Part shown: one piece after another, positions 715 through 27,487 of the stretch
Layout: every line of letters begins with the position of its first letter
Position numbering within the stretch: position 1 is the stretch's first letter
Assembly (NCBI GenBank): GCA_002421785.1
Contig: DIRZ01000003.1
Span: 250,700 to 282,699, forward strand
Length of the DNA stretch: 32,000 nucleotides
Origin: Candidatus Saccharimonadota bacterium
GTDB taxonomy: Bacteria; Patescibacteriota; Saccharimonadia; Saccharimonadales; Saccharimonadaceae
Direction: 5' to 3'
The notes under the pieces: generated by a model
Database searches by the model: none
Told to the model about the DNA's origin: nothing
The model's input: only the letters and a program-made list of their open reading frames with translations
Position numbers and translations under genes: made by a program

Positions 715-758
715 ACTAATATCATAGCACGAGCATTTGCATCCAATACATTGAAAAA

Positions 759-834
759 TGGTGGAGCACAGGAGATTCGAACTCCTCACCTCTTCCATGC
801 CATGGAAGCGCTCTACCAAATGAGCTAGTGCCCC
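759..834 (-). tRNA. tRNA-Ala (anticodon GGC), CCA encoded
   Basis: Reverse complement is GGGGCACTAGCTCATTTGGTAGAGCGCTTCCATGGCATGGAAGAGGTGAGGAGTTCGAATCTCCTGTGCTCCACCA. It folds as a cloverleaf with acceptor GGGGCAC/GTGCTCC carrying the G3:U70 Ala identity pair. The anticodon stem is CTTCC/GGAAG with loop ATGGCAT, and the T-loop is TTCGAAT. Confidence 0.9.
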
Positions 835-845
835 GCGTCTATGCA

Positions 846-854
846 AGTATATCA
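846..854 (-). promoter_or_regulatory. candidate extended -10 promoter element for tRNA-Ala
   Basis: The minus strand reads TGATATACT (TGn + TATACT) about 12 nt upstream of the tRNA 5' end. No good -35 element is present. Confidence 0.35.
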
Positions 855-883
855 AATACACTTCCTGGCTGGGAAGTGTATTT
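854..883. repeat. perfect 12-bp inverted repeat (AAATACACTTCC-N6-GGAAGTGTATTT)
   Basis: Read directly from the sequence: arms at 854-865 and 872-883, loop TGGCTG. It lies in the divergent region between tRNA-Ala (-) and the 1011 gene (+), so no upstream gene on either strand could use it as a terminator. Confidence 0.6.
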
Positions 884-4338: not shown

Positions 4339-4378
4339 TTAGTGTAGTATTGACACTTTCTATTCTATGGTTCATACT
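4339..4378 (+). promoter_or_regulatory. nadE promoter overlapped by a candidate NrtR operator
   Basis: -35 TTGACA (4350-4355), 17-nt spacer, -10 CATACT (4373-4378). The 21-bp box TTAGTGT-AGTATTG-ACACTTT (4339-4359) covers the -35 element. Confidence 0.5.
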
Positions 4379-4424
4379 CGCAAGTGAAAAGGCTCAGCCC
4401 TTTGCCATTAACCAAGGAGGATAT

Positions 4425-5237
4425 ATGCGCAAACAACAGCACGACATCATTACAGAACTCGGCAGCCAGCCAACAATCGACCCCGCCTATGAAATAGCGC
4501 GCAGAACTGAGTTTCTCGCAAGCTACTTGGCGAACACTGGCTTAAAAGGCTACATACTGGGCATATCAGGCGGGCAAGACTCGTTACTGGCCGGCATCCT
4601 CGCAAAGCGTGCAGTGGAGCAACGGCGCGAACTTGGCGATGACGCAACATTCCATGCCGTGCTCCTGCCCTATGGCGAACAGGCAGACCGTGCCGATGCG
4701 CTCCTCGCCCTCGAGACCATCCAGCCAGACGTTACCCACGACATCAACATCAAACCTGCGACCGATGCATTCGTGGAGTCATTCAACAGCTTAGGCGACC
4801 GTCCGCTCACCGATTTCAACAAAGGTAATGTAAAAGCACGCATGCGGATGATTGCTCAGTACGCGCTCGCTGGCCAACATAAACTGCTCGTGCTCGGCAC
4901 CGATCACGCAGCCGAAGCGGTGACTGGCTTCTTCACGAAATTTGGTGACGGAGGAGCTGACGTCCTGCCGCTCTCCGGTCTTACGAAGCGGCAAGGCCGA
5001 CAAATGCTCGCACAGCTCGGTGTGCCCGAAGTGTTTATTCGTAAGCAGCCAACAGCCGATTTACTCGACGCTCGTCCTGGTCAGCCGGATGAAACCGAAC
5101 TTGCGCTAAGCTACGAAACCATCGACGATTACCTAGAAGGACGGTCTGTCGATGAGCGCGCGGCAGAACAAATCGAACAACGCTTTGCAGCCACTATCCA
5201 TAAGCGCAGTCTTCCCGTGGCTGCGCCTAGCCTGTAA
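4425..5237 (+). CDS. nadE: NH3-dependent NAD+ synthetase
   Basis: Start set to the ATG at 4425, preceded by AAGGAGG; the track start at 4350 is a TTG inside the promoter. The PP-loop motif GISGGQDS is present, and the ~270-aa length is typical of single-domain NadE. Confidence 0.9.
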   Translation: MRKQQHDIITELGSQPTIDPAYEIARRTEFLASYLANTGLKGYILGISGGQDSLLAGILAKRAVEQRRELGDDATFHAVLLPYGEQADRADALLALETIQPDVTHDINIKPATDAFVESFNSLGDRPLTDFNKGNVKARMRMIAQYALAGQHKLLVLGTDHAAEAVTGFFTKFGDGGADVLPLSGLTKRQGRQMLAQLGVPEVFIRKQPTADLLDARPGQPDETELALSYETIDDYLEGRSVDERAAEQIEQRFAATIHKRSLPVAAPSL

Positions 5238-5269: not shown

Positions 5270-5290
5270 TTAGTGTATGAAATACAGTAC
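5270..5290 (+). promoter_or_regulatory. weaker NrtR-box-like site overlapping the nrtR start codon
   Basis: TTAGTGT-ATGAAAT-ACAGTAC. The left arm is perfect and the right arm matches 5 of 7 positions. The ATG of nrtR lies at 5277, inside the spacer. Confidence 0.3.
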
Positions 5291-5954
5291 ACCTTATGTA
5301 CCCCCTACACTAACGGTTGACGCCGTCATCTTCCAATTGAACGGCACCGAACTCGAAGTACTGCTGACACAGCGACAAGAAGAGCCGTTTAAAGGGGAGT
5401 GGGCGCTACCCGGCGGCTACAACCCATCAGGTCAAACAACCCTCGAAGCCCTGTCGGCAATTGTTCGGCGCAAAGTCGGCCTTGACCTCGATGCCCAGCT
5501 TCCCTACATTGAGCAGCTGTATACCTTTGACACCGTTGCCCGTGACCCCCGTGGCCACGCAGTCTCGGTGACCTACATGGGCTGCGGCCGAGCCATCGAA
5601 CTAAGTGGTGGTAGCCAAAATGCAGAATTCTTCCCCGTCGACCGACTGCCTGGCCTGGCATACGACCATGAAAAGATTATCGAATATGCACGGGACCGCC
5701 TAGGCGCAAAGCTTACCTACACCAATGCCGTTTCTGGCCTACTGGAATCTAAATTTACTCTTAGCCAGCTACAGACCGCCTACGAAGCCGTCATGGGACG
5801 CGAAATCGATAAACGAAACTTCCGTAAAAAATTCCTGAGCCTTGGGCTCATTCACGAAACGCCAGACATGTGGCGCGAAGGCGCTCACCGCCCCGCTAAG
5901 CTCTACGCCTTCAACAACGAATCACTCGAAGTGCTCGCTCGTAGCTTCGAATAA
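5277..5954 (+). CDS. nrtR: NrtR-family Nudix-related transcriptional regulator (N-terminal Nudix-like domain + C-terminal winged helix)
   Basis: The Nudix-like N-domain contains GEWALPGG and a degenerate Nudix box. The C-terminal ~80 aa (FTLSQLQTAYEAVMGREIDKRNFRKKFLSLGLI) is the characteristic NrtR wHTH. It sits in an NAD gene cluster. Confidence 0.8.
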   Translation: MKYSTPYVPPTLTVDAVIFQLNGTELEVLLTQRQEEPFKGEWALPGGYNPSGQTTLEALSAIVRRKVGLDLDAQLPYIEQLYTFDTVARDPRGHAVSVTYMGCGRAIELSGGSQNAEFFPVDRLPGLAYDHEKIIEYARDRLGAKLTYTNAVSGLLESKFTLSQLQTAYEAVMGREIDKRNFRKKFLSLGLIHETPDMWREGAHRPAKLYAFNNESLEVLARSFE

Positions 5955-5958
5955 GCTC

Positions 5959-7512
5959 CTACGCGTCGTACGGTGTACGCTTTTGAGCCACAAGAAGTGT
6001 ATTTGTCGTGGGCTGCGGTAATTCGTTTAGCGATCCATCAACGCGCTCATACACACGACCTGCCGGTACGAACCGGTTGTCAATCAACCAAGGATTAGTG
6101 ATCCGACGTGAAGCGGCTGTCATAACAAAGCCTGCAGCTTCCAGCACCTCACACCACTCTTCGTGAGAGTAAAAGCAGAATTTTTCATGCATCTCACTCC
6201 GCCAGCTCGTCAAATAATCTTTTTTGGCCAAAAATTCACACAAGTCACCGTGCGACATCACTGCATACTCAGTGCCATCAACATACTCACGACGCACTAC
6301 AATACCATCACCTTCGTCCTGACGAAAATCACGCTCAAACCGACGAAGCCTCGCAGCAGTCGAGAGCGTCCCCAAAAAGCCAGCCAGTTCATCGCCCTCA
6401 AGCTCCCACTGCAGATCATCAGGATTTTCGCCATCATCACTTGTAGGCGCGAAGTATACTTCCTTTGTCCGATCATCTGGCCCGACCACATCGTAATTAA
6501 TGTAGACGCCTCCCGGGGCAAGCATATCGTGAGCGCGCGCAATAAACTGATGCAGTGCGTCGTGCCCCAGGTATGACTCCACTTCATGCGTCAACGCCAT
6601 CGTGATAACCGTCGTAAGAGACGCTGGCTTAAATAACTCACTCTGCATAATATTACGTTGGTAAAAATACACATTCGTGTCGCCAAATTCTCCGTTTGTC
6701 TTGCGCTGCTGGCAAATCTCGTAGAGTGGCCGTGCTGCTTCGACCCCATAGAAATCTGATTCGAATAACTCCGGGCGCTCGCCGAGCAACTTGATAGTCT
6801 GCCCAGTCGCACATCCCACATCAAGTATTTTGCCTGGCAGCACATAGTCAGCGAAGTCGTTCACTTTGCGCCACGCATTATCTTCGAATGCCGCACGGTA
6901 TGATGTATAGTCACGGGAAAGCGTAATATCACCGTCGTCCGACCCAATAAGGGGATCAGCGTAGATTGTTTGCACTAGCTCTGCCACAGCATATCGCTCG
7001 TAAAGCGTTTTGCACACTGGGTGCATCGCTTCGGTAATTGTCGGGTCAGCACTCCACTCAGGGCCACGCGCGATAATACGCCTCACGACATCCCAGGGCA
7101 TCTCGGCCCGAGATTCCTGCTCGACGGTCGCGATACCAAAGCCAAGGGATTCGTACTGCGCGATGACCGCATCAGTCGAGCATGCAACGATAGTGTTGTC
7201 TGGCCGCATATCCACGCGACCACTCGTCTGTGTGCGAATTTCTTCGATGAGGTAATGCGCAAAGTTGGAACGGTATCGTACGTTGCTAATCAGATACACT
7301 TGGCTCGGCAACTGCTCTACGGCTGCGACAGCTTCAATCATACCGAGTCGTCGCGCGCCTGCAATAGGGTTACGCTGCGTACCAGTATGATCTGCCGACG
7401 TCACAGCCCAAACGACCTCGGCATCTGGGTATTGCGCCAATAGGTTCTTCAGGTAGGCCGCCTGAAAACGCGTCACAAGGTGGTGCCGACCCGGTATCAG
7501 CACGTATTTCAC
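5959..7512 (-). CDS. fusion protein: archaeal-NMNAT (NadM)-like nucleotidyltransferase-fold domain + class I SAM-dependent methyltransferase
   Basis: GTG start overlapping the upstream stop (GTGA). The N-terminus MKYVLIPGRHHLVTRFQ...VWAVTSADHTGTQRNPIAGARRLGMI aligns by eye with archaeal NMNAT (GRFQPFHKGH...IGSAQ.SHT..NPFTAGER). The canonical H-x-G-H motif is not present. The C-terminal half has SAM motif I, ILDVGCATGQT. Confidence 0.75.
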   Translation of the reverse strand: MKYVLIPGRHHLVTRFQAAYLKNLLAQYPDAEVVWAVTSADHTGTQRNPIAGARRLGMIEAVAAVEQLPSQVYLISNVRYRSNFAHYLIEEIRTQTSGRVDMRPDNTIVACSTDAVIAQYESLGFGIATVEQESRAEMPWDVVRRIIARGPEWSADPTITEAMHPVCKTLYERYAVAELVQTIYADPLIGSDDGDITLSRDYTSYRAAFEDNAWRKVNDFADYVLPGKILDVGCATGQTIKLLGERPELFESDFYGVEAARPLYEICQQRKTNGEFGDTNVYFYQRNIMQSELFKPASLTTVITMALTHEVESYLGHDALHQFIARAHDMLAPGGVYINYDVVGPDDRTKEVYFAPTSDDGENPDDLQWELEGDELAGFLGTLSTAARLRRFERDFRQDEGDGIVVRREYVDGTEYAVMSHGDLCEFLAKKDYLTSWRSEMHEKFCFYSHEEWCEVLEAAGFVMTAASRRITNPWLIDNRFVPAGRVYERVDGSLNELPQPTTNTLLVAQKRTPYDA

Positions 7513-8519
7513 GAATTCTGTAACGCTCTCTGCGCAAATTCGTGCGATAGACGCGTCAATCGCTCGTAATCTTGCACCTGTTCGAACCCGGTAGGGGTCA
7601 CGAATTCACCCGATGCGTGCGCATTTGCCATCGTGCCAGCAATCGAAGCGATACTGTCGGTATCACCCCCCAGGTTAACCGCGTAGTTCACCGCGGTCGT
7701 GTAATCACCTCGGGCAGCCACCAGCACATCATAGGTCATCGCTACCGTACTAGGTACAAAAAATCCATAGCGTCCATTAGCATGCCCGATGGCGTAACGG
7801 CCAACGAGCTGTGTCAGCGACGTCACAGGAAAACGCATGGCGCGCTCAATTCGACCCTTTGGATCGGCGTTCGGTTCACTCGCCAGGACATCAAGCGCTT
7901 TCGTTCGGAACGCATCTAGCGATGCATCTGGATGTTCCAGTAGCCAATGTGTCACCTCGCCGTGTAGTCGCGTACACGCGCGAGCAATCTCACTATCATG
8001 CGTCATCGTGGTTAACTCGTCATACTGCTGCCGGCGTGTGGGCTCGTCAATTTGCCGAGCGACCTGCCAATAGACGAGAGGCGCCATCTTCATCAATATA
8101 CCGTTCCCGGCACCTTCTGGTTCTCCTGATTCAAGTGGGGACATGCCCGCTGCCATACGCTCCATGCTAGCAGTCGTCGACCCTCCCCAGCCGCGTACCG
8201 ACCACTCGCCTTTGTAGTTTTTGGTCTTCGTTATCGCATGGTATGCGCTCAAATGTGCTTCGGCTTGCGCATCGATATCAAACCCATCTGCTGCCAACAG
8301 GCCTTCGGCCACCGCAACTGACAACTGCGTGTCGTCGCTCGTCGTGCCAGCAGGGAAATTACCCGGGTAGTAGGGATTGTGAAGTGGTGGAATTAAATGG
8401 TCAAGCCGGCCATACCGCCCCGCAATTTCAGATGCTGACATCGTTTCAGTGGGGAGCCCCATTGCATCGCCATACGCAATCGAGGGTAATAACCGTTCGC
8501 CAACACGTTTCATCGTCAT
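7509..8519 (-). CDS. ADP-ribosylglycohydrolase family protein (DraG/ARH-like)
   Basis: Start set to the ATG at 8519, which forms an ATGA overlap with the upstream stop. Motifs AYGDAMGLPTE, TSDDTQL and GGDTDSIASIAG are the di-metal site signatures of the ARH family. Confidence 0.85.
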   Translation of the reverse strand: MTMKRVGERLLPSIAYGDAMGLPTETMSASEIAGRYGRLDHLIPPLHNPYYPGNFPAGTTSDDTQLSVAVAEGLLAADGFDIDAQAEAHLSAYHAITKTKNYKGEWSVRGWGGSTTASMERMAAGMSPLESGEPEGAGNGILMKMAPLVYWQVARQIDEPTRRQQYDELTTMTHDSEIARACTRLHGEVTHWLLEHPDASLDAFRTKALDVLASEPNADPKGRIERAMRFPVTSLTQLVGRYAIGHANGRYGFFVPSTVAMTYDVLVAARGDYTTAVNYAVNLGGDTDSIASIAGTMANAHASGEFVTPTGFEQVQDYERLTRLSHEFAQRALQNS

Positions 8520-9337
8520 GGTTGTGTGAGTCTTTCTGCAGCACTTGCCTGCGCCAGTAGTTCTTCGCCAGTATACCTTCTTCGGGCAGAAAGCTCTACC
8601 CATTTACCCTCGAATGGTGAGCTTGCAGGGTCAAACGGATATGTATAGCGCCGCCATTGCAACTTTTCGCGCACATCATGTGGGTCATCGGGGTTAACTC
8701 TCGTATAGTGAAGAATCGTACAATTGCGCAGTGCGTAGGTATGGTCTGCGTCTATCTTCTCCCACTCTTCGGGTGTCATTCGCTCAATGCCATAGCGTGC
8801 CGCATTAATGAAGTCGCCATGTGTCACCACGCAGACACGCTTGCCGGCCTGCTCACGGTGCAATGTTCCCTGAAAATCACGAAAGCGGGCGTATACATCC
8901 GGCATACTCTCGCCACCATCAAGGCGCGTGTACCATGGATTCTGCGCCTTCTCCTGGGCCGTCATAGGGAAAAGTGCACGCTGTTCGGCGGTCGGTCGCT
9001 TTCCATACACGCCCCAACTCCGTTCAACAACCCGGTCATCAATCGTCCAGCCACCCAGTTCCGGGCCACCAAGGCAGGCAGCCGTTTCACGGGTTCGGTA
9101 AAATGGCGAAACATACAATGCGTCAAACGACGCCAGGCCCCCGACATTCTCGTCAAGCCATCGTTTAGCTGTTTCTGCTTGCGCCACACCATTCTGCGTA
9201 AGACGGTGCTGCCAATCTGGCCTGCCAAAAATTGCCTGCACCGTGTTGTCATCCAGGCCATGGTCGTCACTCTTCTGAACAGTGTTCGCTTCAGACTGGC
9301 CGTGTCTGATAAAAATTAAGTCGTTAGGCATCGCCAT
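8516..9337 (-). CDS. histidine phosphatase superfamily protein (phosphoglycerate-mutase-like, branch 1)
   Basis: The catalytic motif LIFIRHGQSEAN (RHG) is present, together with RTRETA, ERSWG and VTHGDF. An AAAGGAG RBS precedes the ATG at 9337. Confidence 0.85.
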   Translation of the reverse strand: MAMPNDLIFIRHGQSEANTVQKSDDHGLDDNTVQAIFGRPDWQHRLTQNGVAQAETAKRWLDENVGGLASFDALYVSPFYRTRETAACLGGPELGGWTIDDRVVERSWGVYGKRPTAEQRALFPMTAQEKAQNPWYTRLDGGESMPDVYARFRDFQGTLHREQAGKRVCVVTHGDFINAARYGIERMTPEEWEKIDADHTYALRNCTILHYTRVNPDDPHDVREKLQWRRYTYPFDPASSPFEGKWVELSARRRYTGEELLAQASAAERLTQP

Positions 9338-9391: not shown

Positions 9392-9455
9392 ATAGTGTTG
9401 ACATTACAATAACTATTCGCTAGGATGAAGCTAGTAAGTGTATAAAGTACAATAA
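9392..9455 (+). promoter_or_regulatory. pnuC promoter with two candidate NrtR operators, in the divergent region shared with the histidine-phosphatase operon
   Basis: -35 TTGACA (9398-9403), 17-nt spacer, -10 TAGGAT (9421-9426). Box 1, ATAGTGT-TGACATT-ACAATAA (9392-9412), covers the -35 element. Box 2, TAAGTGT-ATAAAGT-ACAATAA (9435-9455), lies downstream of the -10 element. Confidence 0.5.
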
Positions 9456-9474: not shown

Positions 9475-10197
9475 ATGAAATTACAACTTAATCCTAAAGG
9501 TGCCAGCCTCACACGGCACATCACAGAAAGCATCATCATTGGTGTCGTACTGACATTCCTCTCCTATGCAGTCGGTATCTTTGCAGGCTGGCTCACCCCT
9601 GCCGGGCTTAACTGGCTTGAGGTATTCGCCGTCCTCACATCATATGCCTGTACCTATCTGTGTGTGGTTGAGCGACGCATCAACTACCCCATCGGTGCAA
9701 TCAGCTCGGCCGCCTATGCGGTGCTCTTTATGCAGAGCGGGTTGCTATCAAGCGCCATTCTGAACGCCTACTTGGCACCAACGCTCATTTACGGCTGGCT
9801 CCGTTGGCGCAAAGATGCCAATGCTCGCCCAGTTACTCACGTCGAGCTGAAGTGGCTTCCCGTGTACGTCATCGTGGCAGCCGCTGGGTATGTAGGCGCC
9901 AGCCTGATTAGCAAATCGTTTGGCGGGGCGATGGCCTGGACGGACTCGATCATATTGGCTGGGACTATCCTGGCACAGTTCTTGCTCGATAATAAAAAGC
10001 TTGAAAACTGGGCAGTGTGGGCTATGGTAAATGTCTTCGCTATCTACACCTACTGGACAATTGGCCTCCCACTTGTCGCCTTCCAGTACATCTTTTTCCT
10101 CGCAAACACCGTCTACGGCTATATCACCTGGAAGCGCAGCAAGGAGCAGGCTCATGAGACCTCAACCCTCAAAGAACCCGTCCTCACCGAAGCCTAA
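9475..10197 (+). CDS. pnuC: nicotinamide riboside transporter PnuC
   Basis: 240-aa polytopic membrane protein with W/Y-rich helices and a C-terminal motif FQYIFFLANTVYGYITW typical of PnuC. It lies directly upstream of RNK/NadR genes. Confidence 0.8.
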   Translation: MKLQLNPKGASLTRHITESIIIGVVLTFLSYAVGIFAGWLTPAGLNWLEVFAVLTSYACTYLCVVERRINYPIGAISSAAYAVLFMQSGLLSSAILNAYLAPTLIYGWLRWRKDANARPVTHVELKWLPVYVIVAAAGYVGASLISKSFGGAMAWTDSIILAGTILAQFLLDNKKLENWAVWAMVNVFAIYTYWTIGLPLVAFQYIFFLANTVYGYITWKRSKEQAHETSTLKEPVLTEA

Positions 10198-10762
10198 GTC
10201 CTTTACTATCACCATCTTTGGCGCCGAGTCGACTGGCAAAACGACACTCAGCCGTGAACTTGCGACAGTACTCGGTGCCCAGTGGCTGTACGAATTCGCC
10301 CGCCCCTACCTTGAGCTGACGAGTGCACCCATCACCCCCAGCTCGATGACGGCAATTTGGCACGGCCAGCAGGTGCTACAGACGATGCGCGAAGGCCATG
10401 TCATCGTGCAGGATACCGACCTGTTCTCAACAGTTGGATACTGGCAGTTCCCGCACTGGCACCCGGTCCTCGGCGACTGCCCCGCTGCGCTCATTCGTGA
10501 CGCCAAGCACCTTCAGTCAGACCTTTACCTTATTACGCCAAGCAACATCCCCTTCGAACATGACCCACTTCGCTACGGCGGGGATGCACGAGAAGGGACC
10601 GATGACTACTGGGTAGCGGTCTGTGAACAATATCAATTACCGTACGTCGTGCTGAACTCCAGCGACCCGTCAGCACGCGTCACCGAAGCACTCACTATTA
10701 TGCAAACAAAGGAGAATCTATGCGCGGCCTCGTCATTGGCAAATTTTACCCACCCCACCTAG
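10154..10762 (+). CDS. stand-alone NadR-C-terminal-like P-loop ATPase (putative ribosylnicotinamide kinase)
   Basis: Start set to the ATG at 10154, preceded by AAGGAG; the upstream part of the track ORF is an out-of-frame reading of pnuC. Walker A is FGAESTGKTTLSRELA and a Walker-B-like VQDTDL follows. It is a paralogue of the C-terminal domain of the next gene. Confidence 0.7.
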   Translation: MRPQPSKNPSSPKPKSFTITIFGAESTGKTTLSRELATVLGAQWLYEFARPYLELTSAPITPSSMTAIWHGQQVLQTMREGHVIVQDTDLFSTVGYWQFPHWHPVLGDCPAALIRDAKHLQSDLYLITPSNIPFEHDPLRYGGDAREGTDDYWVAVCEQYQLPYVVLNSSDPSARVTEALTIMQTKENLCAASSLANFTHPT

Positions 10763-11723: not shown

Positions 11724-11790
11724 TTAGTGTTGACTTTACACTAACAACGCGTTACACTCAGTTTATAAGTTAGTGTATATATCACACTAA
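11724..11790 (+). promoter_or_regulatory. pncA promoter with two perfect 21-bp palindromes (candidate NrtR operators)
   Basis: Box 1 is TTAGTGT-TGACTTT-ACACTAA (11724-11744) and box 2 is TTAGTGT-ATATATC-ACACTAA (11770-11790). The -35 TTGACT (11730-11735) lies inside box 1, followed by a 17-nt spacer and -10 TACACT (11753-11758). Confidence 0.6.
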
Positions 11791-11816
11791 CAATAAGAAT
11801 AAAGGAGTTGACCACT

Positions 11817-12539
11817 ATGAATACCCTCAAAGCCCCCCAAGTATACGGCGAAGTTATGCTAGGCAACATCGATGTGCAGAACGACTTCTGCCCTGGCGGC
11901 ACACTCGCCGTTAGGGATGGAGACAAAGTCGTAGGACCACTCAATGCTGTCGGTGAATTTGTCGCCGAGCATGACGGCTTCGTCTTTAATACAGGCGACT
12001 TCCACGATCCACGCACAGCACACTTCGACACAAACGGCGGCCCATGGCCTGTCCACTGCGTAGAGTACCGCGCCGGTGCAGCTTTTCACGAAGACCTGAC
12101 TATCCGTCCTAATGATAGCGTCGCCTACAAAGGCACAAGCCTGGTTGACGACGGCTACTCTGGTGCTGAAGCGGTTATCCAGCGCGGTCGCCTCGAGTCC
12201 ATCGTGTCAAACCTCCCCGCAAGCGAACGGACGATAGGTGCTGCGATTGAGCGCATTGAGCAAGTAACTGAACAGTACAAACGACGCCTGGCGGTGTTAA
12301 TCGGCGGACTTGCGACAGACTACTGTGTGAAGGCGACCGTTCTCGACGTACTCGCCATTACAAATCGGGAAACAACCGATGTTATTGTGCTCCGTGATGC
12401 AATTCGTGCCGTCAACATCAATGAAACAGACGGTGAAGATGCAATCAACGCGATGCTTGAAGCTGGCGCACTAGCAATGACAACTGAAGAAATTCTTGCG
12501 GGCGGCATCGTTATTGATCATACACGGCTGGAGCGCTAA
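11817..12539 (+). CDS. pncA: nicotinamidase (isochorismatase family)
   Basis: Start at the ATG at 11817, 9 nt after AAAGGAG. Motifs DVQNDFCPGGTLAV and the catalytic-Cys motif LATDYCVKAT are present. Confidence 0.85.
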   Translation: MNTLKAPQVYGEVMLGNIDVQNDFCPGGTLAVRDGDKVVGPLNAVGEFVAEHDGFVFNTGDFHDPRTAHFDTNGGPWPVHCVEYRAGAAFHEDLTIRPNDSVAYKGTSLVDDGYSGAEAVIQRGRLESIVSNLPASERTIGAAIERIEQVTEQYKRRLAVLIGGLATDYCVKATVLDVLAITNRETTDVIVLRDAIRAVNINETDGEDAINAMLEAGALAMTTEEILAGGIVIDHTRLER

Positions 12540-12549
12540 GGTGAGCGCT

Positions 12550-13851
12550 ATGAACAAACGCGAGACACCTTCCCTTTCCCAAGGCCTCGACTATTACAAA
12601 GCCACAATGGGGCAGGTTGAATTCGATAAACACCCCGACACAATCGTTACCTTTGAGCTAAAGAATCGTGGAGCCAACAAGCTATCGACCTACGTGACTC
12701 CTGAGCAGTTATCGGCACGACTAGCCGAGCTCCAGGACGGATGGAGCCCAGAAGAAGTTGCCTACCTGGCTGGCCTCACCAACCAAGACGGTGGTGCTCG
12801 CTTCACCCCAGAGTATCTCGACTTCCTCGCGGACAATCCACTTCCCCCCGTGCAGGTCGGCTATGATGAACACCATGAGCTTACCGTCAAAACGACTGGT
12901 GCGTGGCCGCTCGTGACCTTTTGGGAAACAGTCGTGATGAGCGAGCTTAATGAGCTCTACTTCGCTGGCAAATTAGCCGCAGAAGGCAGCTCACTCGATG
13001 AACTTTATGCCGAAGGCGAACGGCGTCTTGATAGCAAGATCGCCACGCTCCGCGACCGACCTGATATTAAATTTTCAGACTTCGGTACACGCCGACGCTT
13101 CAGCTACGACTGGCAGAAGCACGTTATCGAACGTGTCGCCCAGGAGCTACCTAGCCAATTCCTTGGTACCTCAAACATTTTCCTGGCGCATGAGCTCAAC
13201 CTGAAACCAATCGGCACCTACGCACACGAGATGCCCATGGTATACGGCGCCATCGAACAAATGAATGGCAACGACCCGCTCGACGGTCATCACAAAATGC
13301 TCCGCGACTGGGAAACGACCCACCGTGGCGACCTTGCAACTGCGTTGACCGATACCTGGACAACTGACTACTTCTTCACCGACTTCACCCCAGAACAAGC
13401 CGAAGCTTGGGGCGGCCTACGACACGATTCTGGTGACCCATTTGAATTCGGCGAACGTGTTATTACGTTTTACCAGCAATACAATATCGATCCACGCGCC
13501 CACACCATTGTCTACAGTGACGGCCTCGACATCGACATGATTGTCGCCCTGGCAGACCGCTTTAGGGGCCGCGTCAATCTCGTGTTTGGCTGGGGCACTA
13601 CGCTCACCAACGACCTGGGGGTTAAAGCGAACAACTTCGTCATGAAAGCCACTACAGTTGCAGAAGCCTCCCTGCCGCAGTACGAGCAAGGTACCGTCAA
13701 GCTGAGTGACGCCGAAGGCAAGCACATGGGCAGCCCTGAAGATGTCGAACTCTATGGACAACGCGTCAAACGTGCTGTCGCCATGGGCGCTCGAGCCTAC
13801 CAGTTGAGTGTCGCGAATAACGCACATGAAAAACAGCTGGTGGCTGTATGA
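12550..13851 (+). CDS. pncB: nicotinate phosphoribosyltransferase
   Basis: Start at the ATG at 12550, after AAGGTGA. Motifs YYKATMGQ, DFGTRRRFS, GTYAHEMPM, SDGLD and FGWGTTLTND are typical of PncB. Confidence 0.85.
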   Translation: MNKRETPSLSQGLDYYKATMGQVEFDKHPDTIVTFELKNRGANKLSTYVTPEQLSARLAELQDGWSPEEVAYLAGLTNQDGGARFTPEYLDFLADNPLPPVQVGYDEHHELTVKTTGAWPLVTFWETVVMSELNELYFAGKLAAEGSSLDELYAEGERRLDSKIATLRDRPDIKFSDFGTRRRFSYDWQKHVIERVAQELPSQFLGTSNIFLAHELNLKPIGTYAHEMPMVYGAIEQMNGNDPLDGHHKMLRDWETTHRGDLATALTDTWTTDYFFTDFTPEQAEAWGGLRHDSGDPFEFGERVITFYQQYNIDPRAHTIVYSDGLDIDMIVALADRFRGRVNLVFGWGTTLTNDLGVKANNFVMKATTVAEASLPQYEQGTVKLSDAEGKHMGSPEDVELYGQRVKRAVAMGARAYQLSVANNAHEKQLVAV

Positions 13852-15329
13852 AGTGTCCCGAACTTCGCGCAAACACAGCGAACGTCGAACTACCAACTCA
13901 TGAGGAGCAAGAGGGCTTTCTTGCCCTTGGCCTTACTACTGATAACAATGGACGCCCTTTGCACCCATGGCGCTACGATATCCCCGACCTGCCCTCCACC
14001 AAAGGCGATTTATGGAAATGGGGACCAAATTATACTGTAGACCCCATCGTTCTGTCCCAGGACAACGACGGTCCAGTAATACTGCTTATCCAGCGAGGCG
14101 ACTGCGGACAATGGGCGCTACCTGGCGGCTTTGTCGATAGTGGCGAAAACCCCCTCGAAGCAGCGCGCCGCGAGCTCCGCGAAGAAACCAGTTTGGAGAT
14201 CACGGACGGTGAGTCGACGGCACATGTTTGCTATCAAGGGCCAGTCCACGACAGACGAAGCACCATGTACGCATGGCCAGAAACGACATCGATCTTGATG
14301 CATGTCCCTACCGCGCCCGTTGCCGCTGGGGATGATGCCATGACCGCCCAATGGGTGCCCCTAAAAGACGTCCGCCTACTGCCGGGCCTTTATGGGTCAC
14401 ATGGTACACTAATTGATATGGCAATTCGAGACAGCGGTACATTTCATGAGCAACTCGAATACTTTAGTAACCAAGTTGAGTTTAGCCAACCTACTGGTGG
14501 GCACATGGGCTACACTCGGCACATCGCATCACTACCCACAGGCAGGCGCGTATTCATTAAGCGGCACGACGCCGACAAGTTCACCGATGAGACGCGCGCT
14601 CAACATTCAAAACGCTATCTACACAAGGAGCATCACGTCTACCAGCAGCTATCAGACACATCCCCTCATACTCCTGACCACATTGAATTGACTAATGACA
14701 GTACTCTGCTGCTCGAAGCATACGACCCACGTGATGGATGGCAGTGGAAAGCACCACTGGACATTACTGAGCGTAGACGATATATCCATGAAGTAATCGA
14801 GGCTCTGCGCACCATTGAACCTGCGAGGTATGAGCCATTTGTTGACGTAAAACCGTCATATCATACGATTATCGATGAGGGTTGGGGCGCCTACCCTACA
14901 GCCCGCACACGCATTATCGAAAAGCTGCACAGATCCTCAGTCGAAGGAGCCCGGGCACTTGCCGATAGCCTGGATGAGCTATACGAACGTACTCAGCATC
15001 TCCCGTCACCAGAGCTTACCCACTTCGCTCATTATGACGTCCGCCAATCAAACATCGCCTGGCATCCCGAGCATGGCGTACGCATTGTTGATTGGAGTTG
15101 GGCGGATCCCGCCCCTAAAGGCGTAGATACCACGAGCTTTCTGATTGACATACATAAAGCCGGATATTCTATCGATGAGCATATGCCGGATTTTAATGCC
15201 GAACACGCACTGATACTTATAGGATTCTGGCTAGGCCACAGCATATGGCCGACACCAACACACGATCAAACCGTTCGCGAGCATCAAATCAGTTCAGCGG
15301 TTGCCGCTTTTCAGCTACTTAACCAGTAG
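13848..15329 (+). CDS. fusion protein: NUDT9-like Nudix (ADP-ribose pyrophosphatase-like) + protein-kinase-like/APH-fold phosphotransferase
   Basis: ATGA overlap with the pncB stop. The N-terminal half has KWGPNYTVDPIVL (NUDT9-type upstream motif, from memory) and the Nudix box GGFVDSGENPLEAARRELREETSL. The C-terminal half has FIKRHD (putative beta3 Lys), catalytic loop HYDVRQSNIAW (H-x-D-x4-N) and metal-binding IVDWSWA. Confidence 0.8.
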   Translation: MKCPELRANTANVELPTHEEQEGFLALGLTTDNNGRPLHPWRYDIPDLPSTKGDLWKWGPNYTVDPIVLSQDNDGPVILLIQRGDCGQWALPGGFVDSGENPLEAARRELREETSLEITDGESTAHVCYQGPVHDRRSTMYAWPETTSILMHVPTAPVAAGDDAMTAQWVPLKDVRLLPGLYGSHGTLIDMAIRDSGTFHEQLEYFSNQVEFSQPTGGHMGYTRHIASLPTGRRVFIKRHDADKFTDETRAQHSKRYLHKEHHVYQQLSDTSPHTPDHIELTNDSTLLLEAYDPRDGWQWKAPLDITERRRYIHEVIEALRTIEPARYEPFVDVKPSYHTIIDEGWGAYPTARTRIIEKLHRSSVEGARALADSLDELYERTQHLPSPELTHFAHYDVRQSNIAWHPEHGVRIVDWSWADPAPKGVDTTSFLIDIHKAGYSIDEHMPDFNAEHALILIGFWLGHSIWPTPTHDQTVREHQISSAVAAFQLLNQ

Positions 15330-18859: not shown

Positions 18860-19462
18860 TTATGAGCTCGGGCCAGGGACAGTTACCCAGCACAGTGTCT
18901 TCCCGAGGCTACTGATATTCCCCAAACTATACCCAGTGGTCGAAGCAATAAAATTTGGCCAAGTATACTGAACGACATTTCCAACTCCGCAGTTTTGGTT
19001 CGTTCCTAGCAGATGATAGGTTAGCCGCATCGGCTGTGTAGTACCGCCGTAGGTCATGGTTGTATTATATGTGAACCACATACCCGCCCCATTCGCTGAG
19101 CCAGTTTTCGGAATACTCAACGGAACCACACCGACAGTCGCAATATTCGTATTAAATGTTGTTGAAGAATCCTTAACAACTCCCGCACTGTCTATACATC
19201 CAGAATCAATCGTAATGCACGCATCTCCAATTGTCGCAAATGGATACGCATCATTTGCCGCTATATACGCTTGCATCATGCGAAGCGATTTACTCGCAGC
19301 ATCGATTGTAGCGGTATTATTAGCACGCTGCTGAATGCCATTATAAGAAGCGATGGAGATGGCGGCCAGTATCGCAATCACTACGATGACTATAAGAAGC
19401 TCAACGATTGTAAAGCCTGTGGCGGTACCAGGCGTGCGATTTGGTGTGCTAAGCATAAGCAT
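18860..19462 (-). CDS. type IV pilin-like protein (prepilin-type N-terminal cleavage/methylation domain)
   Basis: The N-terminus is MLMLSTPNRTPGTATGFTIVELLIVIVVIAILAAISIASYNGIQQRANN. The mature N-terminal helix is nearly identical to that of the 127..714 gene. The alternative ATG at 19456 is also possible. Confidence 0.8.
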   Translation of the reverse strand: MLMLSTPNRTPGTATGFTIVELLIVIVVIAILAAISIASYNGIQQRANNTATIDAASKSLRMMQAYIAANDAYPFATIGDACITIDSGCIDSAGVVKDSSTTFNTNIATVGVVPLSIPKTGSANGAGMWFTYNTTMTYGGTTQPMRLTYHLLGTNQNCGVGNVVQYTWPNFIASTTGYSLGNISSLGKTLCWVTVPGPSS

Positions 19463-25820: not shown

Positions 25821-26381
25821 CTAAAAAACGAGGTCGACCGGATCGGCAATCGAGAAGGCATCCGCATACACCCATTCGTATCGCTCAAGACATTGTGTCA
25901 CGATGTGGGTATATATCTCATATACATCCTCGAGCGCCGTGCCGCTCGCAACTTCACATTGCAATTCAGGAAGCGTCAGCCAACGAATGTCGTCCGCCTC
26001 GCCCTCTGCCTGAGCCCGGGCTGGAATCGCTCGCGCAATAAATGCATAGCATAAATCTGAATGGTAATGCTCAGCATTCACTCGGTGCGTATTTACAAGT
26101 AGGGGCACCGGGTGTATGACAGCATGCTCAAGAGTCGGCAACTGCTTCGTCGGCTGCAGCACGCTCAACTCATTCAGTTGATACCCTGTTTCCTCTGCCA
26201 ACTCATGTGCCAAGGCTGCCCAAGGTGTTTCGGCGAGCTCAATGTGACCTCCAGCCTGCATGAGCTTTCCAAGTTTGCGATGCATGTGCACTAGAACGAG
26301 CGGCTCATCATCCTGCATACGCACAATGTACGCGCTTACAGTAATGTCATGTTGGCCATCGAGTGTGTGGATATGCGGCAT
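25821..26381 (-). CDS. Nudix hydrolase (stand-alone)
   Basis: Nudix box GGHIELAETPWAALAHELAEETGY. Substrate unknown. Confidence 0.75.
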   Translation of the reverse strand: MPHIHTLDGQHDITVSAYIVRMQDDEPLVLVHMHRKLGKLMQAGGHIELAETPWAALAHELAEETGYQLNELSVLQPTKQLPTLEHAVIHPVPLLVNTHRVNAEHYHSDLCYAFIARAIPARAQAEGEADDIRWLTLPELQCEVASGTALEDVYEIYTHIVTQCLERYEWVYADAFSIADPVDLVF

Positions 26382-27305: not shown

Positions 27306-27487
27306 ATATCCATTGTACCGCAATACTACCCCTGTTGTAAACGCAAGTGCTCATACACGTTGCATCATCTTGGTGTATTTAGTATACTTATAACACTATG
27401 AACTTGCGCTAGTTCCTCTACTCGTGAATGTTGGGACGGCCTAACCACTTGCGATACAAACAACTAAGAGAAAGGTTTTATTAACAC

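What the first reader, a model, noticed from the sequence alone, without database searches (positions are those of the whole stretch)
13848..15329. NUDT9-like ADP-ribose pyrophosphatase fused to an APH/protein-kinase-fold phosphotransferase, translationally coupled to pncB
The N-terminal half carries a complete Nudix box plus the upstream WGPN..DP motif that I associate with NUDT9-type ADPR pyrophosphatases. The C-terminal ~260 aa carry the H-x-D-x4-N catalytic loop (HYDVRQSN) and the D-W metal site (IVDWSWA) of the aminoglycoside, choline and methylthioribose kinase fold. The ATG overlaps the pncB stop (ATGA). A hydrolase that yields AMP plus ribose-5-phosphate, joined to a small-molecule kinase and coupled to a PRPP-consuming enzyme, suggests substrate channelling. 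One route would channel the ribose moiety of ADPR toward an activated ribose phosphate. Another would phosphorylate nicotinamide or nicotinate riboside. I do not know of a characterised protein with this architecture.
Basis: partly seen in the sequence, partly recalled or inferred. Interest (0 to 1): 0.75.

Follow-up and report, generated by a model that had tools for sequence, protein, structure and literature searches.

The report
ADP-ribose hydrolase fused to unknown kinase
This is a real two-enzyme protein conserved in Saccharibacteria: a NUDT9-type ADP-ribose hydrolase joined to a divergent small-molecule kinase of unknown substrate, encoded as the last gene of an ADP-ribose-regulated NAD-recycling operon, so it points to an uncharacterised step in how these tiny symbiotic bacteria recycle NAD breakdown products.

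Summary
ORF 13848-15329(+) encodes 493 aa and its ATG overlaps the pncB stop codon (ATGA).

- **N-terminal half:** residues ~28-196 are a NUDT9-type Nudix domain. The best PDB matches by sequence and by fold are human NUDT9 and the active TRPM2 chanzyme. The catalytic box RELREE is canonical and invariant in 36 homologues.
- **C-terminal half:** residues ~197-493 are a divergent APH/choline-kinase-fold domain. The AF2 model has pLDDT 94 and all top fold hits are small-molecule kinases. K238, E261, H395xD397x4N402 and D415 are invariant.
- **Not an artefact:** there are more than 250 full-length homologues, almost all from Saccharibacteria. The two domains also occur as adjacent split genes and in reversed order, so they were joined at least twice.
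- **Operon and regulation:** the gene ends a conserved pncA-pncB-nudix/kinase operon. Tandem NrtR operators (TTAGTGT-N7-ACACTAA) precede it, inside an island that also encodes NadE, NrtR, ADP-ribosylglycohydrolase, PnuC, NadR and LigA.

The ADP-ribose hydrolase function (ADPR to AMP + ribose-5-P) is well supported. The kinase substrate is unresolved. My leading inference is phosphorylation of the ribose moiety released from ADPR. The rivals are a pyridine-riboside kinase or a regulatory role. I found no published characterisation of this protein.

The parts
13848..15329 (+). Complete gene for the 493-aa Nudix-kinase fusion protein (stop codon 15327-15329)
   Evidence: ORF list. A 99% identical protein is deposited elsewhere and >250 homologues exist. 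The AF2 full-length model has pLDDT 93.2 and pTM 0.87.
13929..14435 (+). NUDT9-type Nudix (ADP-ribose pyrophosphatase) domain, residues ~28-196
   Evidence: Pfam NUDIX E 1.2e-18. PDB 1q33 human NUDT9 E 4.6e-16 over residues 28-192. Foldseek top hits are 1qvj and the TRPM2 chanzyme.
14019..14045 (+). NUDT9-family upstream motif WGPNYTVDP (residues 58-66)
   Evidence: It aligns to WGPNHAADP of NUDT9. G59, N61 and D65 are invariant in 36 homologues.
14127..14195 (+). Nudix box G-x5-E-x7-RELREE-x-S-L (residues 94-116). The catalytic residues R108, E109, E112 and E113 are intact.
   Evidence: Read directly from the sequence. Invariance across the family. Published criterion: REUXEE is active and RILRQE is inactive (PMC6461439).
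14436..15326 (+). Divergent APH/choline-kinase-fold (protein-kinase-like) phosphotransferase domain, residues ~197-493
   Evidence: Family-level Pfam hits: APH 16/21 and Choline_kinase 15/21. AF2 pLDDT 93.9. Foldseek hits: LicA 4r77 TM 0.60, then MPH, APH, HSK, MtnK and FN3K.
14559..14561 (+). K238, the predicted ATP-binding beta3 lysine (FIK motif)
   Evidence: Invariant F236 and K238. The assignment to beta3 is inferred from the strand positions in the model.
15030..15053 (+). Catalytic loop HYDVRQSN (H395-x-D397-x4-N402)
   Evidence: Sequence. H395, D397 and N402 are invariant, and R399 and Q400 are >=90% conserved. The loop aligns to HNDLQENN of choline kinase 3c5i.
15090..15101 (+). Metal-binding DWSW (D415), the equivalent of DFG in protein kinases and IDFEY in choline kinase
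   Evidence: Invariant D415 W416 S417 W418. Aligned to IDFEY of 3c5i.
13848..13851 (+). ATGA: the start codon of the fusion gene overlaps the pncB stop codon
   Evidence: Sequence. The same overlap with the upstream gene is seen in 26 of 48 loci.
12496..13851 (+). pncB, nicotinate phosphoribosyltransferase. The likely true start is the ATG at 12550.
   Evidence: TIGR01514 NAPRTase 290.6 bits, above the cut-off of 269.55. Pfam NAPRTase E 5.7e-54.
11808..12539 (+). pncA, nicotinamidase, first gene of the operon
   Evidence: PRK11609 nicotinamidase E 1.5e-29, 103.4 bits against a cut-off of 174. Pfam Isochorismatase above cut-off. The order pncA-pncB-Nudix is conserved in ~45 loci.
11724..11790 (.). 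Two perfect 21-bp NrtR-type operators (TTAGTGTTGACTTTACACTAA at 11724-11744 and TTAGTGTATATATCACACTAA at 11770-11790) in the pncA promoter region
   Evidence: Palindrome scan. Window enrichment is 9 sites against 1.02 expected, with 0 of 100 shuffles reaching 9. The same placement is seen in ~48 of 60 loci. The motif matches the published 21-bp GT-N7-AC NrtR signature.
5277..5954 (+). nrtR, the Nudix + winged-helix ADPR-responsive repressor predicted to control the operon
   Evidence: Pfam NrtR_WHD E 4.5e-24 plus NUDIX. An NrtR gene is present in 31 of 60 related loci.

Best explanation
The gene encodes a genuine bifunctional enzyme specific to Saccharibacteria. It is the last gene of a pncA-pncB-(nudix/kinase) operon, which is predicted to be switched on by the repressor NrtR when free ADP-ribose (the main NAD breakdown product) accumulates.

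**Step 1 (well supported by homology).** The N-terminal NUDT9-type Nudix domain hydrolyses ADP-ribose to AMP and ribose-5-phosphate. This removes a reactive metabolite, consumes the NrtR inducer (negative feedback), and recovers the ribose phosphate.

**Step 2 (inferred).** The C-terminal domain is an active ATP-dependent small-molecule kinase of the APH/choline-kinase fold that works on the same metabolite stream as the Nudix domain. Most likely it phosphorylates the ribose moiety, either ribose-5-P or ADPR itself before cleavage, at the anomeric hydroxyl. Either order gives ribose-1,5-bisphosphate. This would keep the ADPR-derived pentose phosphorylated and direct it toward PRPP for the co-translated PncB, or toward pentose-bisphosphate metabolism.

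The domain identities, the conservation, the operon and the operator are shown. The catalytic competence of both domains is inferred from invariant residues. The identity of the phosphate acceptor is a hypothesis only.
For: **Nudix half.**
- NUDT9 is the top hit by sequence and by fold, including the R5P complex 1qvj.
- The REUXEE box and the NUDT9 motifs are invariant in 36 homologues.
- The published activity criterion is met.

**Kinase half.**
- The fold and all catalytic residues are conserved.
- The family is small: 242 clusters among 1.84e9 representatives.

**Coupling of the two domains.**
- They are fused as Nudix-kinase in about 27 loci and split into adjacent genes in at least 10 loci.
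- The order is reversed (kinase-Nudix) in L031, L033 and P0152.
- Stand-alone kinases with E<1e-60 lie immediately after a Nudix gene.
- The kinase stays with the Nudix gene even where the pair follows nadR rather than pncB.
- The full-length model has pTM 0.87, which suggests a fixed inter-domain arrangement.

**Operon and regulation.**
- The order pncA-pncB-Nudix is conserved.
- The ATGA overlap is present in 26 of 48 loci.
- Tandem NrtR-type operators are enriched in the window and conserved across loci.
- NrtR, NadE, ADP-ribosylglycohydrolase, PnuC, NadR and LigA are in the same island.

**Precedent.**
- The chain ADPR -> Rib-P (Nudix) -> PRPP -> phosphoribosyltransferase, with dedicated prs-nadV operons under NrtR, is published (PMC2330246).
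- From established knowledge, not tested here: APH-fold kinases that phosphorylate an anomeric hydroxyl exist. MtnK acts on a 5-substituted ribose, and NahK, AmgK and maltokinase are further examples.
Against: - No assay exists, so the acceptor substrate is not shown.
- The weak sequence matches lean to thiamine kinase (17/21) and choline kinase (15/21). MTR kinase is matched by only 1 of 21 members, at E 0.08.
- The best fold hit is LicA choline kinase. MtnK is rank 22.
- A gamma-phosphate transfer would give ribose-1,5-bisphosphate, not PRPP. No PhnN-like or Prs-like gene, nor any second kinase, co-occurs with the kinase within +/-8 kb of 60 loci.
- About 10 species keep pncA-pncB-Nudix without any kinase and without a replacement gene. 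The kinase step is therefore dispensable for the operon's core function.
- A few kinase homologues (L037, L044, L058) lie away from NAD genes and lack NrtR operators.
- I could not determine whether these genomes have a canonical PRPP synthase.
Confidence: 0.35

Rival explanations
1. The kinase is a non-canonical pyridine-riboside kinase (nicotinamide riboside and/or nicotinate riboside -> NMN/NaMN). The fusion to the ADPRase would then be analogous to NadM-Nudix: two NAD-salvage activities on one polypeptide with no channelling between them. Under this reading, every gene of the operon would feed the NaMN/NMN pool.
For: - The nearest characterised relatives by weak sequence and fold similarity are choline kinase, LicA and thiamine kinase. 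Both choline and thiamine carry a quaternary or aromatic cationic nitrogen plus a hydroxyl, like NR.
- In the ChoK alignment, the invariant W418 and D434 fall at the aromatic and acidic positions of the choline-kinase motif (IDFEY...FFIE). Their role as a cation cage is recalled from ChoK literature and was not tested.
- The context is strongly NAD-related.
- ADPRase fused to a salvage enzyme has a precedent in NadM-Nudix, whose Nudix domain is among the hits.
Against: - In the window and in at least 12 other loci, a NadR with its own ribosylnicotinamide-kinase domain is in the same cluster. The window has an extra RNK-like gene as well. In L030, L038, L054 and L065, NadR directly precedes Nudix-kinase, so an NR kinase would be redundant.
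- This reading does not explain why the kinase's constant partner, in either fusion order and in split genes, is the Nudix rather than PncA, PncB or PnuC.
Confidence: 0.2
2. The pairing is regulatory rather than metabolic. One possibility is that the Nudix domain senses ADPR (as in NrtR and human TRPM2) and gates the kinase. Another is that the kinase is a protein or self kinase that controls the ADPRase, PncB or another target in response to NAD turnover.
For: - NUDT9-type and Nudix domains are repeatedly used as ADPR sensors. The NrtR Nudix domain with ADPR (3gz8) and the TRPM2 NUDT9-H domain are among the structural hits (PMC2330246; PMC6461439).
- Some APH-fold relatives are protein kinases: 4 of 21 members hit RIO1 and 2 of 21 hit the CotS spore-coat protein family.
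- The rigid two-domain model (pTM 0.87) is compatible with allostery.
Against: - The Nudix catalytic residues are invariant, whereas dedicated sensors usually degenerate.
- All of the top 50 fold hits except phosphorylase kinase (2y7j, ranks 26 and 39) are small-molecule kinases, not protein kinases.
- Split-gene versions exist. That is harder to reconcile with intramolecular gating.
Confidence: 0.12
3. The kinase acts on an unrelated small molecule, for example an antibiotic (as classical APH and macrolide phosphotransferases do), choline or thiamine. Its association with the Nudix gene would then be historical and without pathway meaning.
For: - The fold hits include many resistance kinases and APH(3') matches 11 of 21 members.
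- A distant relative, P0229, is a GNAT-APH fusion like bifunctional resistance enzymes.
- The kinase is dispensable in some species.
Against: - Two independent fusion orders plus adjacent split genes, conserved across sequences only 37-50% identical, argue for selection on the pairing.
- The operon is under a conserved NAD/ADPR operator.
- Identity to any resistance enzyme is only 10-16%.
Confidence: 0.08
4. The fusion is an assembly or frameshift artefact that joins two separate genes.
For: In at least 10 related genomes the two domains are separate adjacent ORFs.
Against: - The 493-codon frame is uninterrupted.
- A 99% identical protein comes from an independent deposit, and more than 100 full-length homologues come from NCBI, ENA, JGI and Logan assemblies.
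- About 27 of the genome loci carry the fused form.
- AF2 models the whole chain confidently.
Confidence: 0.01

Closest known systems
Human NUDT9 (mitochondrial ADP-ribose pyrophosphatase) and the catalytically active NUDT9-H domain of invertebrate/choanoflagellate TRPM2 'chanzymes'
   Same: - They are the best sequence and fold matches, at about 30% identity over ~200 residues.
- They share the WGPN..DP, Y.G.V.D.R.T..AW.ET and GDDA motifs and a canonical REUXEE Nudix box.
- The expected chemistry is the same: ADPR -> AMP + ribose-5-P.
   Different: - The protein here is bacterial (Saccharibacteria) and lacks several NUDT9 insertions.
- It is fused to a kinase domain instead of standing alone or being attached to an ion channel.
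- It sits in an NrtR-controlled salvage operon.
NadM-Nudix (bifunctional NMN adenylyltransferase/ADP-ribose pyrophosphatase of Synechocystis and Francisella; PDB 2qjo, 2qjt, 2r5w) and the NrtR-regulated prs-nadV-nadM clusters
   Same: - An ADPR pyrophosphatase is fused to, or clustered with, NAD-salvage enzymes and a phosphoribosyltransferase under NrtR control.
- The Nudix domains are detectably similar.
- The published rationale is ADPR -> Rib-P -> PRPP -> salvage.
   Different: - The partner domain here is an APH/ChoK-fold kinase, not an NMNAT.
- No Prs gene is found in the cluster.
- The phosphoribosyltransferase is PncB, not NadV.
APH/choline-kinase family small-molecule kinases (Pfam PF01636/PF01633): LicA choline kinase, thiamine kinase ThiK, APH(3'), macrolide phosphotransferases, homoserine kinase II, 5-methylthioribose kinase MtnK, fructosamine-3-kinase
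   Same: - The bilobal protein-kinase-like fold is shared.
- The beta3 Lys, alphaC Glu, HxDx4N catalytic loop and metal-binding Asp are all conserved.
   Different: - Identity to any solved member is only 10-16%.
- The window protein is below the Pfam thresholds.
- It has family-specific invariant motifs: GGHMxY, DGWxW, EGW, the RQ in the catalytic loop, DWSW, and GFWL.
- The substrate is unknown.
- It forms a small clade (about 240 clusters at 50% identity) whose core members are tied to a NUDT9-like Nudix.
Phage NAD reconstitution pathways NARP1 (Adps + Namat), NARP2 and NARP3 (PnuC + NadR)
   Same: - The theme is the same: rebuilding NAD from its breakdown products ADPR and nicotinamide.
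- In NARP1, ATP-dependent phosphorylation of the ADPR ribose is coupled to a phosphoribosyltransferase-family enzyme.
- The window also has the NARP3-type PnuC + NadR pair.
   Different: - The kinase is not PRPS-like.
- The Nudix domain is predicted to destroy ADPR rather than preserve it.
- PncB scores as a bona fide NAPRTase equivalog.
- This is a chromosomal housekeeping operon of Saccharibacteria, not a phage counter-defence module.

Membership tests
Nudix hydrolase superfamily, NUDT9-type ADP-ribose pyrophosphatase | Nudix box GX5EX7REUXEEXGU with intact catalytic Glu residues | tested here: met
   The box reads G94-x5-E100-x7-R108 E109 L R E112 E113 T S L. The only deviation is G->S at the penultimate position, and most homologues have G there. 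R108, E109, E112 and E113 are invariant in 36 sequences. The activity criterion comes from PMC6461439.
Nudix hydrolase superfamily, NUDT9-type ADP-ribose pyrophosphatase | Closest relatives by sequence and by fold are NUDT9/NUDT9-H, with the family-specific motifs outside the Nudix box | tested here: met
   1q33 E 4.6e-16 and TRPM2 chanzyme E 2.5e-10. 1qvj is the top Foldseek hit at E 1.2e-12. WGPN..DP, D135, R137, W143, T146, GDDA and H185 are conserved.
Nudix hydrolase superfamily, NUDT9-type ADP-ribose pyrophosphatase | Mg2+-dependent hydrolysis of ADP-ribose to AMP + ribose-5-phosphate, with specificity for ADPR | not testable with these tools
   This needs an enzyme assay.
APH/choline-kinase phosphotransferases (Pfam PF01636 / PF01633; protein-kinase-like fold) | Significant match to the family profile | tested here: inconclusive
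   The window protein has no APH hit at E<0.01, and its Choline_kinase score is 15.5 bits against a cut-off of 29. However, 16 of 21 orthologous domains hit APH (best E 1.1e-13) and 15 of 21 hit Choline_kinase.
APH/choline-kinase phosphotransferases (Pfam PF01636 / PF01633; protein-kinase-like fold) | Bilobal kinase fold | tested here: met
   The AF2 model has pLDDT 93.9 and pTM 0.91. All 50 top PDB matches are protein-kinase-like-fold kinases. All but phosphorylase kinase 2y7j are APH/ChoK-type small-molecule kinases, and the best is LicA at TM 0.60.
APH/choline-kinase phosphotransferases (Pfam PF01636 / PF01633; protein-kinase-like fold) | Catalytic residues: ATP-binding Lys, alphaC Glu, HxDx4N loop, metal-binding Asp | tested here: met
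   K238, E261, H395, D397, N402 and D415 are invariant in 36 sequences. The catalytic loop and the Asp align to ChoK 3c5i.
5-methylthioribose kinase (MtnK) / anomeric sugar kinases | Specific sequence relationship to MtnK (TIGR01767) or another anomeric kinase | tested here: not met
   Only 1 of 21 members matches TIGR01767, at E 0.084. MtnK 2pyw is rank 22 in the fold search, at 10% identity. The 'works like MtnK on ribose-5-P' idea is therefore an analogy, not family membership.
Ribose-phosphate pyrophosphokinase (Prs / PRPS-like Adps of NARP1) | PRT-type fold with Prs signature motifs | tested here: not met
   The kinase domain has a protein-kinase-like fold. No Prs signature was found in the window or in 60 loci.
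NrtR regulon member | 21-bp palindromic operator with a GT-N7-AC core upstream of the operon, and an nrtR gene in the genome | tested here: met
   Two perfect TTAGTGT-N7-ACACTAA sites lie at 11724-11790. The window holds 9 sites against 1.02 expected. The placement is conserved in about 48 of 60 loci. NrtR is at 5277-5954. The motif definition comes from PMC2330246.
NrtR regulon member | NrtR binding to the site and release by ADP-ribose | not testable with these tools
   This needs EMSA or reporter assays.
NadM-Nudix bifunctional NMNAT/ADPR pyrophosphatase | N-terminal NadM-type NMN adenylyltransferase domain, and a score above the NCBIfam cut-off | tested here: not met
   Only the Nudix part matches: 39 bits against cut-offs of 350-450. 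There is no NMNAT domain.

The most novel reading that the evidence does not exclude
The Nudix-kinase is a self-contained 'ADP-ribose to activated ribose' module. It cleaves ADPR and phosphorylates the released (or still attached) ribose at C1. This gives ribose-1,5-bisphosphate, and ultimately PRPP for the co-translated PncB. That would be a PRPP-synthase-independent, kinase-fold route dedicated to NAD recycling in genome-reduced Saccharibacteria. In its strongest form, the APH-fold domain itself would make PRPP, which would be a non-homologous PRPP synthase.
Probability: 0.2. Interest if true: 0.85.

Novelty: new variant of a known kind. Interest (0 to 1): 0.62.

Why it matters
Saccharibacteria and other Patescibacteria are obligate epibionts with minimal metabolism, so how they keep cofactors such as NAD supplied is largely unknown. 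This locus shows a compact regulon, predicted to respond to ADP-ribose, that combines every known salvage route with an ADP-ribose hydrolase welded to a kinase that has no characterised relative.

The two domains were joined at least twice in evolution, so the kinase almost certainly catalyses a step tied to ADPR turnover that is missing from current NAD pathway maps. Identifying its substrate would do one of two things. It could reveal a new way to recycle the ribose of NAD, possibly a Prs-independent path toward PRPP. Or it could reveal a new class of pyridine-riboside kinase.

It would also give a function to a family now annotated only as 'NUDIX domain-containing protein', 'phosphotransferase' or 'hypothetical'. 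The question can be tested directly with one recombinant protein and LC-MS.

Tried and rejected
2. **Active-site geometry.** Model coordinates are not exposed to the scripting sandbox. I could not measure the distance or orientation between the two active sites, or inspect the acceptor pocket.
3. **Profile search against PDB sequences.** The kinase-domain profile gave only marginal hits: ChoK E 0.012 and APH(9) E 0.016. No close solved relative exists.
4. **Canonical PRPP synthase.** I looked for Prs and generic PRT-loop signatures in six-frame translations of the window and about 0.86 Mb of related loci and found none. These are neighbourhoods, not genomes, so this says nothing about presence elsewhere.
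5. **Non-homologous replacement of the kinase.** In species with Nudix only, the operon simply ends. The neighbours are IMPase-family, Ham1, ABC transporter and radical-SAM genes.
6. **Unbiased ORF clustering over 60 loci.** I looked for genes that co-occur with the kinase. No second kinase or PhnN-like gene emerged.
7. **Contexts of distant stand-alone kinase relatives** (P0177, P0184, P0186, P0200, P0222). These gave no NAD or ribose theme, or sat on contigs too short to tell.
8. **Literature.** I searched for the fusion, Saccharibacteria NAD/PRPP metabolism, NARP pathways, and R1,5P2/PhnN. No description of this protein turned up. NARP3 proved to be PnuC + NadR only.
9. **Thiamine-related reading.** I considered it and rejected it as primary, even though thiamine kinase is the commonest weak NCBIfam hit. 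The matches cover only the catalytic core, and every piece of context is NAD/ADPR.

Full report
**1. The observation**

The window holds an uninterrupted ORF at 13848..15329 on the + strand, 493 codons.
- WGPNYTVDP at residues 58-66
- a full Nudix box, GFVDSGENPLEAARRELREETSL, at residues 94-116
- HYDVRQSN at residues 395-402
- IVDWSWA at residues 413-419
- an ATG at 13848 that overlaps the TGA stop of the upstream gene (ATGA, 13848-13851)

The upstream gene is a bona fide nicotinate phosphoribosyltransferase. It scores 290.6 bits on TIGR01514 against a cut-off of 269.55.

**2. The N-terminal domain**

- Pfam NUDIX matches residues 68-182 at E 1.2e-18.
- Against all PDB sequences, the best match is human NUDT9 (1q33, E 4.6e-16, residues 28-192). 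The next matches are the catalytically active TRPM2 'chanzyme' NUDT9-H domains.
- An AlphaFold2 model of the whole protein, built on 36 homologues, is confident (pLDDT 93.2, pTM 0.87).
- The best structural matches of that model are NUDT9 bound to ribose-5-phosphate (1qvj, E 1.2e-12), the TRPM2 chanzyme, the ADPR-bound Nudix domain of NrtR, and NadM-Nudix.
- Across 36 homologues down to 37% identity, R108, E109, E112 and E113 of the Nudix box are invariant. So are the NUDT9-specific positions G59, N61, D65, D135, R137, W143, T146 and H185; the GDDA residues D162, D163 and A164 are at least 90% conserved.
- The literature criterion is that REUXEE boxes (NUDT9: REFGEE) are active, while RILRQE (human TRPM2) is dead (PMC6461439). 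The box here is RELREE.

I conclude with high confidence that this half is an ADP-ribose pyrophosphatase (ADPR -> AMP + ribose-5-P). The activity itself is inferred, not measured.

**3. The C-terminal domain**

The window protein alone gives only marginal kinase hits: thiamine kinase E 0.003, choline kinase E 0.011 and APH 4pdy E 0.013. I therefore cut out residues 197-493 from 21 homologues (alignment A2).
- Sixteen of 21 members hit Pfam APH (best E 1.1e-13) and 15 of 21 hit Choline_kinase.
- The AF2 model of this domain is confident (pLDDT 93.9, pTM 0.91).
- All of its top 50 PDB matches are protein-kinase-like-fold kinases. All but phosphorylase kinase (2y7j) are small-molecule kinases of the APH/ChoK superfamily.
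- The best match is LicA choline kinase (TM 0.60). It is followed by macrolide and aminoglycoside phosphotransferases, homoserine kinase II, MTR kinase and fructosamine-3-kinase, all at only 10-16% identity.
- The canonical catalytic set is invariant: K238, E261, H395-x-D397-x4-N402 and D415.

It has no close characterised relative. An exhaustive profile search of 1.84 billion cluster representatives finds only 242 clusters at E<=1e-3, so this is a small, distinct clade.

**4. The fusion is real, and the coupling is selected**

- A 99% identical protein is deposited for Candidatus Saccharibacteria bacterium 32-50-10. 253 homologues have E<=1e-3, and the 120 listed are nearly all full length, from independent sources.
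- A scan of one genome per species returned 60 loci, almost all Saccharibacteria/Saccharimonadia.
- Mapping the window's proteins onto these loci shows three arrangements. The fused form is in about 27 loci. The two domains are adjacent separate ORFs in at least 10 loci. The Nudix alone is present in about 10 loci.
- In L031, L033 and cluster P0152 the order is reversed, with the kinase N-terminal and the NUDT9-like Nudix C-terminal. The domains were therefore joined at least twice.
- Stand-alone kinases that score better than about 1e-60 sit directly after a Nudix gene.
- More distant members (E 1e-48 and weaker) have unrelated contexts.
- Where the pair follows nadR instead of pncB, the kinase still follows the Nudix, and the ATGA overlap is made with nadR.

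The constant partner of the kinase is thus the ADPRase, not PncB.

**5. Operon, island and regulation**

- The order pncA-pncB-Nudix(-kinase) is conserved in about 45 loci. A divergently transcribed histidine-phosphatase gene lies upstream, and often the NAD-dependent ligase gene ligA lies convergent downstream.
- The start of the Nudix gene overlaps the upstream stop as ATGA in 26 of 48 loci, and it lies within 15 nt in nearly all the others.
- The window is an NAD/ADPR island:
  - NadE, 4350-5237
  - NrtR, 5277-5954
  - a methyltransferase-domain protein
  - an ADP-ribosylglycohydrolase, 7509-8603
  - the histidine phosphatase
  - PnuC
  - an extra RNK-like P-loop kinase
  - NadR (NMNAT + RNK)
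  - PncA and PncB
  - the Nudix-kinase
  - LigA
- Two perfect 21-bp palindromes, TTAGTGT-N7-ACACTAA, lie at 11724-11744 and 11770-11790 in front of pncA. Near-copies lie in front of pnuC, nadE and nrtR.
- The window has 9 such sites against 1.02 expected, and 0 of 100 shuffles reach 9.
- This is the published NrtR signature, a 21-bp palindrome with a GT-N7-AC core (PMC2330246).
- The same operator is found in front of pncA or pnuC in about 48 of 60 loci, usually as a tandem pair with the first copy overlapping a TTGACA -35 box. It is absent from kinase-only loci and non-Saccharibacteria loci.
- NrtR is released from DNA by ADP-ribose (PMC2330246).

The operon is therefore predicted to be induced by the very metabolite that its last gene product destroys.

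**6. Mechanism**

*What is shown:* the domain identities, the conservation of catalytic residues, repeated fusion, operon structure and operator conservation.

*What is inferred:* ADPR accumulating from NAD-consuming reactions, or released by the island's ADP-ribosylglycohydrolase, lifts NrtR repression. PncA and PncB then recycle nicotinamide. The Nudix domain cleaves ADPR to AMP + ribose-5-P. This detoxifies ADPR, ends the inducing signal and recovers the pentose.

*For the kinase,* I favour at about 0.35 an acceptor from the same metabolite stream. The ribose anomeric hydroxyl of ribose-5-P, or of ADPR before cleavage, would in either order give ribose-1,5-bisphosphate.
- The rationale is the repeated physical coupling to the ADPRase.
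- A second support is the published chain ADPR -> Rib-P -> PRPP -> phosphoribosyltransferase, with dedicated prs-nadV operons.
- A third is the existence of APH-fold anomeric kinases such as MtnK. That point rests on established knowledge and was not tested here.

*Weaknesses of this model:*
- The weak sequence hits lean to thiamine kinase and choline kinase rather than MtnK.
- No enzyme that would convert R1,5P2 to PRPP is seen nearby.
- The kinase is dispensable in some species.

**7. Rivals**

- **(a) An NR/NaR kinase, about 0.2.** The ChoK/ThiK-like lean and the NAD context support it. The co-located NadR-RNK domains would make it redundant, and it gives no reason for the specific pairing with the Nudix.
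- **(b) A regulatory pairing (ADPR sensing or a protein kinase), about 0.12.** The invariant catalytic Nudix box and the small-molecule-kinase fold neighbours weaken it.
- **(c) An unrelated or xenobiotic kinase, about 0.08.** The two fusion orders and the regulon weaken it.
- **(d) An assembly artefact, about 0.01.** The orthologues refute it.

**8. Comparison with what is known, and novelty**

- The Nudix half is a new bacterial member of the NUDT9 family.
- The kinase half founds a distinct clade within the APH/ChoK superfamily.
- The architecture parallels NadM-Nudix (a salvage enzyme plus an ADPRase) and echoes the logic of NrtR-controlled prs-nadV and of phage NARP1. It is a member of none of these: it has no NMNAT domain and no PRPS-like fold, and its PncB is a true NAPRTase.
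- Database entries call these proteins 'NUDIX domain-containing protein', 'phosphotransferase', 'ADP-ribose pyrophosphatase YjhB' or 'hypothetical'.
- Seven literature searches found no characterisation.

I rate it a new variant of a known kind, with interest 0.62. It is not categorically new, but it is a well-defined and experimentally tractable gap in NAD/ADPR metabolism of an important, poorly understood bacterial lineage.

Noticed in passing
window 4339-4359, 5270-5313, 9392-9455, 11724-11790, 27370-27399: A predicted NrtR regulon. 21-bp operators TTAGTGT-N7-ACACTAA lie upstream of nadE, at the nrtR start, between the divergent histidine-phosphatase and pnuC genes, and upstream of pncA. 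There is also an unexpected overlapping pair upstream of an ABC transporter gene (27488-29263), which might therefore be NAD- or niacin-related.
   Followed up: partly
window 5959-9337 (- strand): An apparent operon of a histidine phosphatase (8516-9337), an ADP-ribosylglycohydrolase (7509-8603) and a 517-aa methyltransferase-domain protein (5959-7512) is transcribed divergently from pnuC and shares the NrtR operators. The phosphatase is conserved next to pncA in 29 of 60 loci and the glycohydrolase in 17. Their substrates are unknown. The phosphatase could oppose or complement the kinase.
   Followed up: partly
window 10031-10762 (+): A stand-alone P-loop kinase (AAA_28) resembling only the ribosylnicotinamide-kinase half of NadR lies between pnuC and the full nadR. 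The listed ORF overlaps pnuC, so the true start is probably downstream. It is present only in the closest relatives (L002, L008, L046, L051).
   Followed up: no
L031 7986-9440; L033 7968-9410; protein P0152: Reversed domain order: kinase at the N-terminus and the NUDT9-like Nudix at the C-terminus, at the same position after pncB. This is an independent fusion event.
   Followed up: yes
window 25821-26381 (-) and 29338-30045 (+): There are two further Nudix genes. The second carries an N-terminal winged-helix domain (domain order opposite to NrtR), so it may be another Nudix-type regulator.
   Followed up: no
L001 (labelled Acidobacteriota MAG) and L042 (labelled Chloroflexi MAG): These contigs carry the Saccharibacteria-type pncA-pncB-Nudix(-kinase) operon with the same NrtR operator. 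They are probably mis-binned Saccharibacteria contigs.
   Followed up: partly
L039 8604-9359 (-), L065 3293-4060 (-); L046 8795-9355 (-), L055 8465-9058 (-), L033 11105-12100 (-): An inositol-monophosphatase-family gene or a Ham1 (ITPase) gene often lies convergent just downstream of the Nudix(-kinase). The Ham1 gene is conserved in 15 loci. Both are nucleotide- or phosphate-handling enzymes, and their relevance is unknown.
   Followed up: no
L037 8899-9429 (-), L058 9152-9679 (-): Where the kinase homologue stands alone away from NAD genes, a small Nudix gene that is not NUDT9-like lies convergent immediately downstream. This could be coincidence or a looser kinase-Nudix association.
   Followed up: no
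window 127-861 (-) and 18860-19462 (-): Two type IV pilin-like genes with an N-terminal methylation motif, consistent with the epibiotic Saccharibacteria lifestyle.
   Followed up: no
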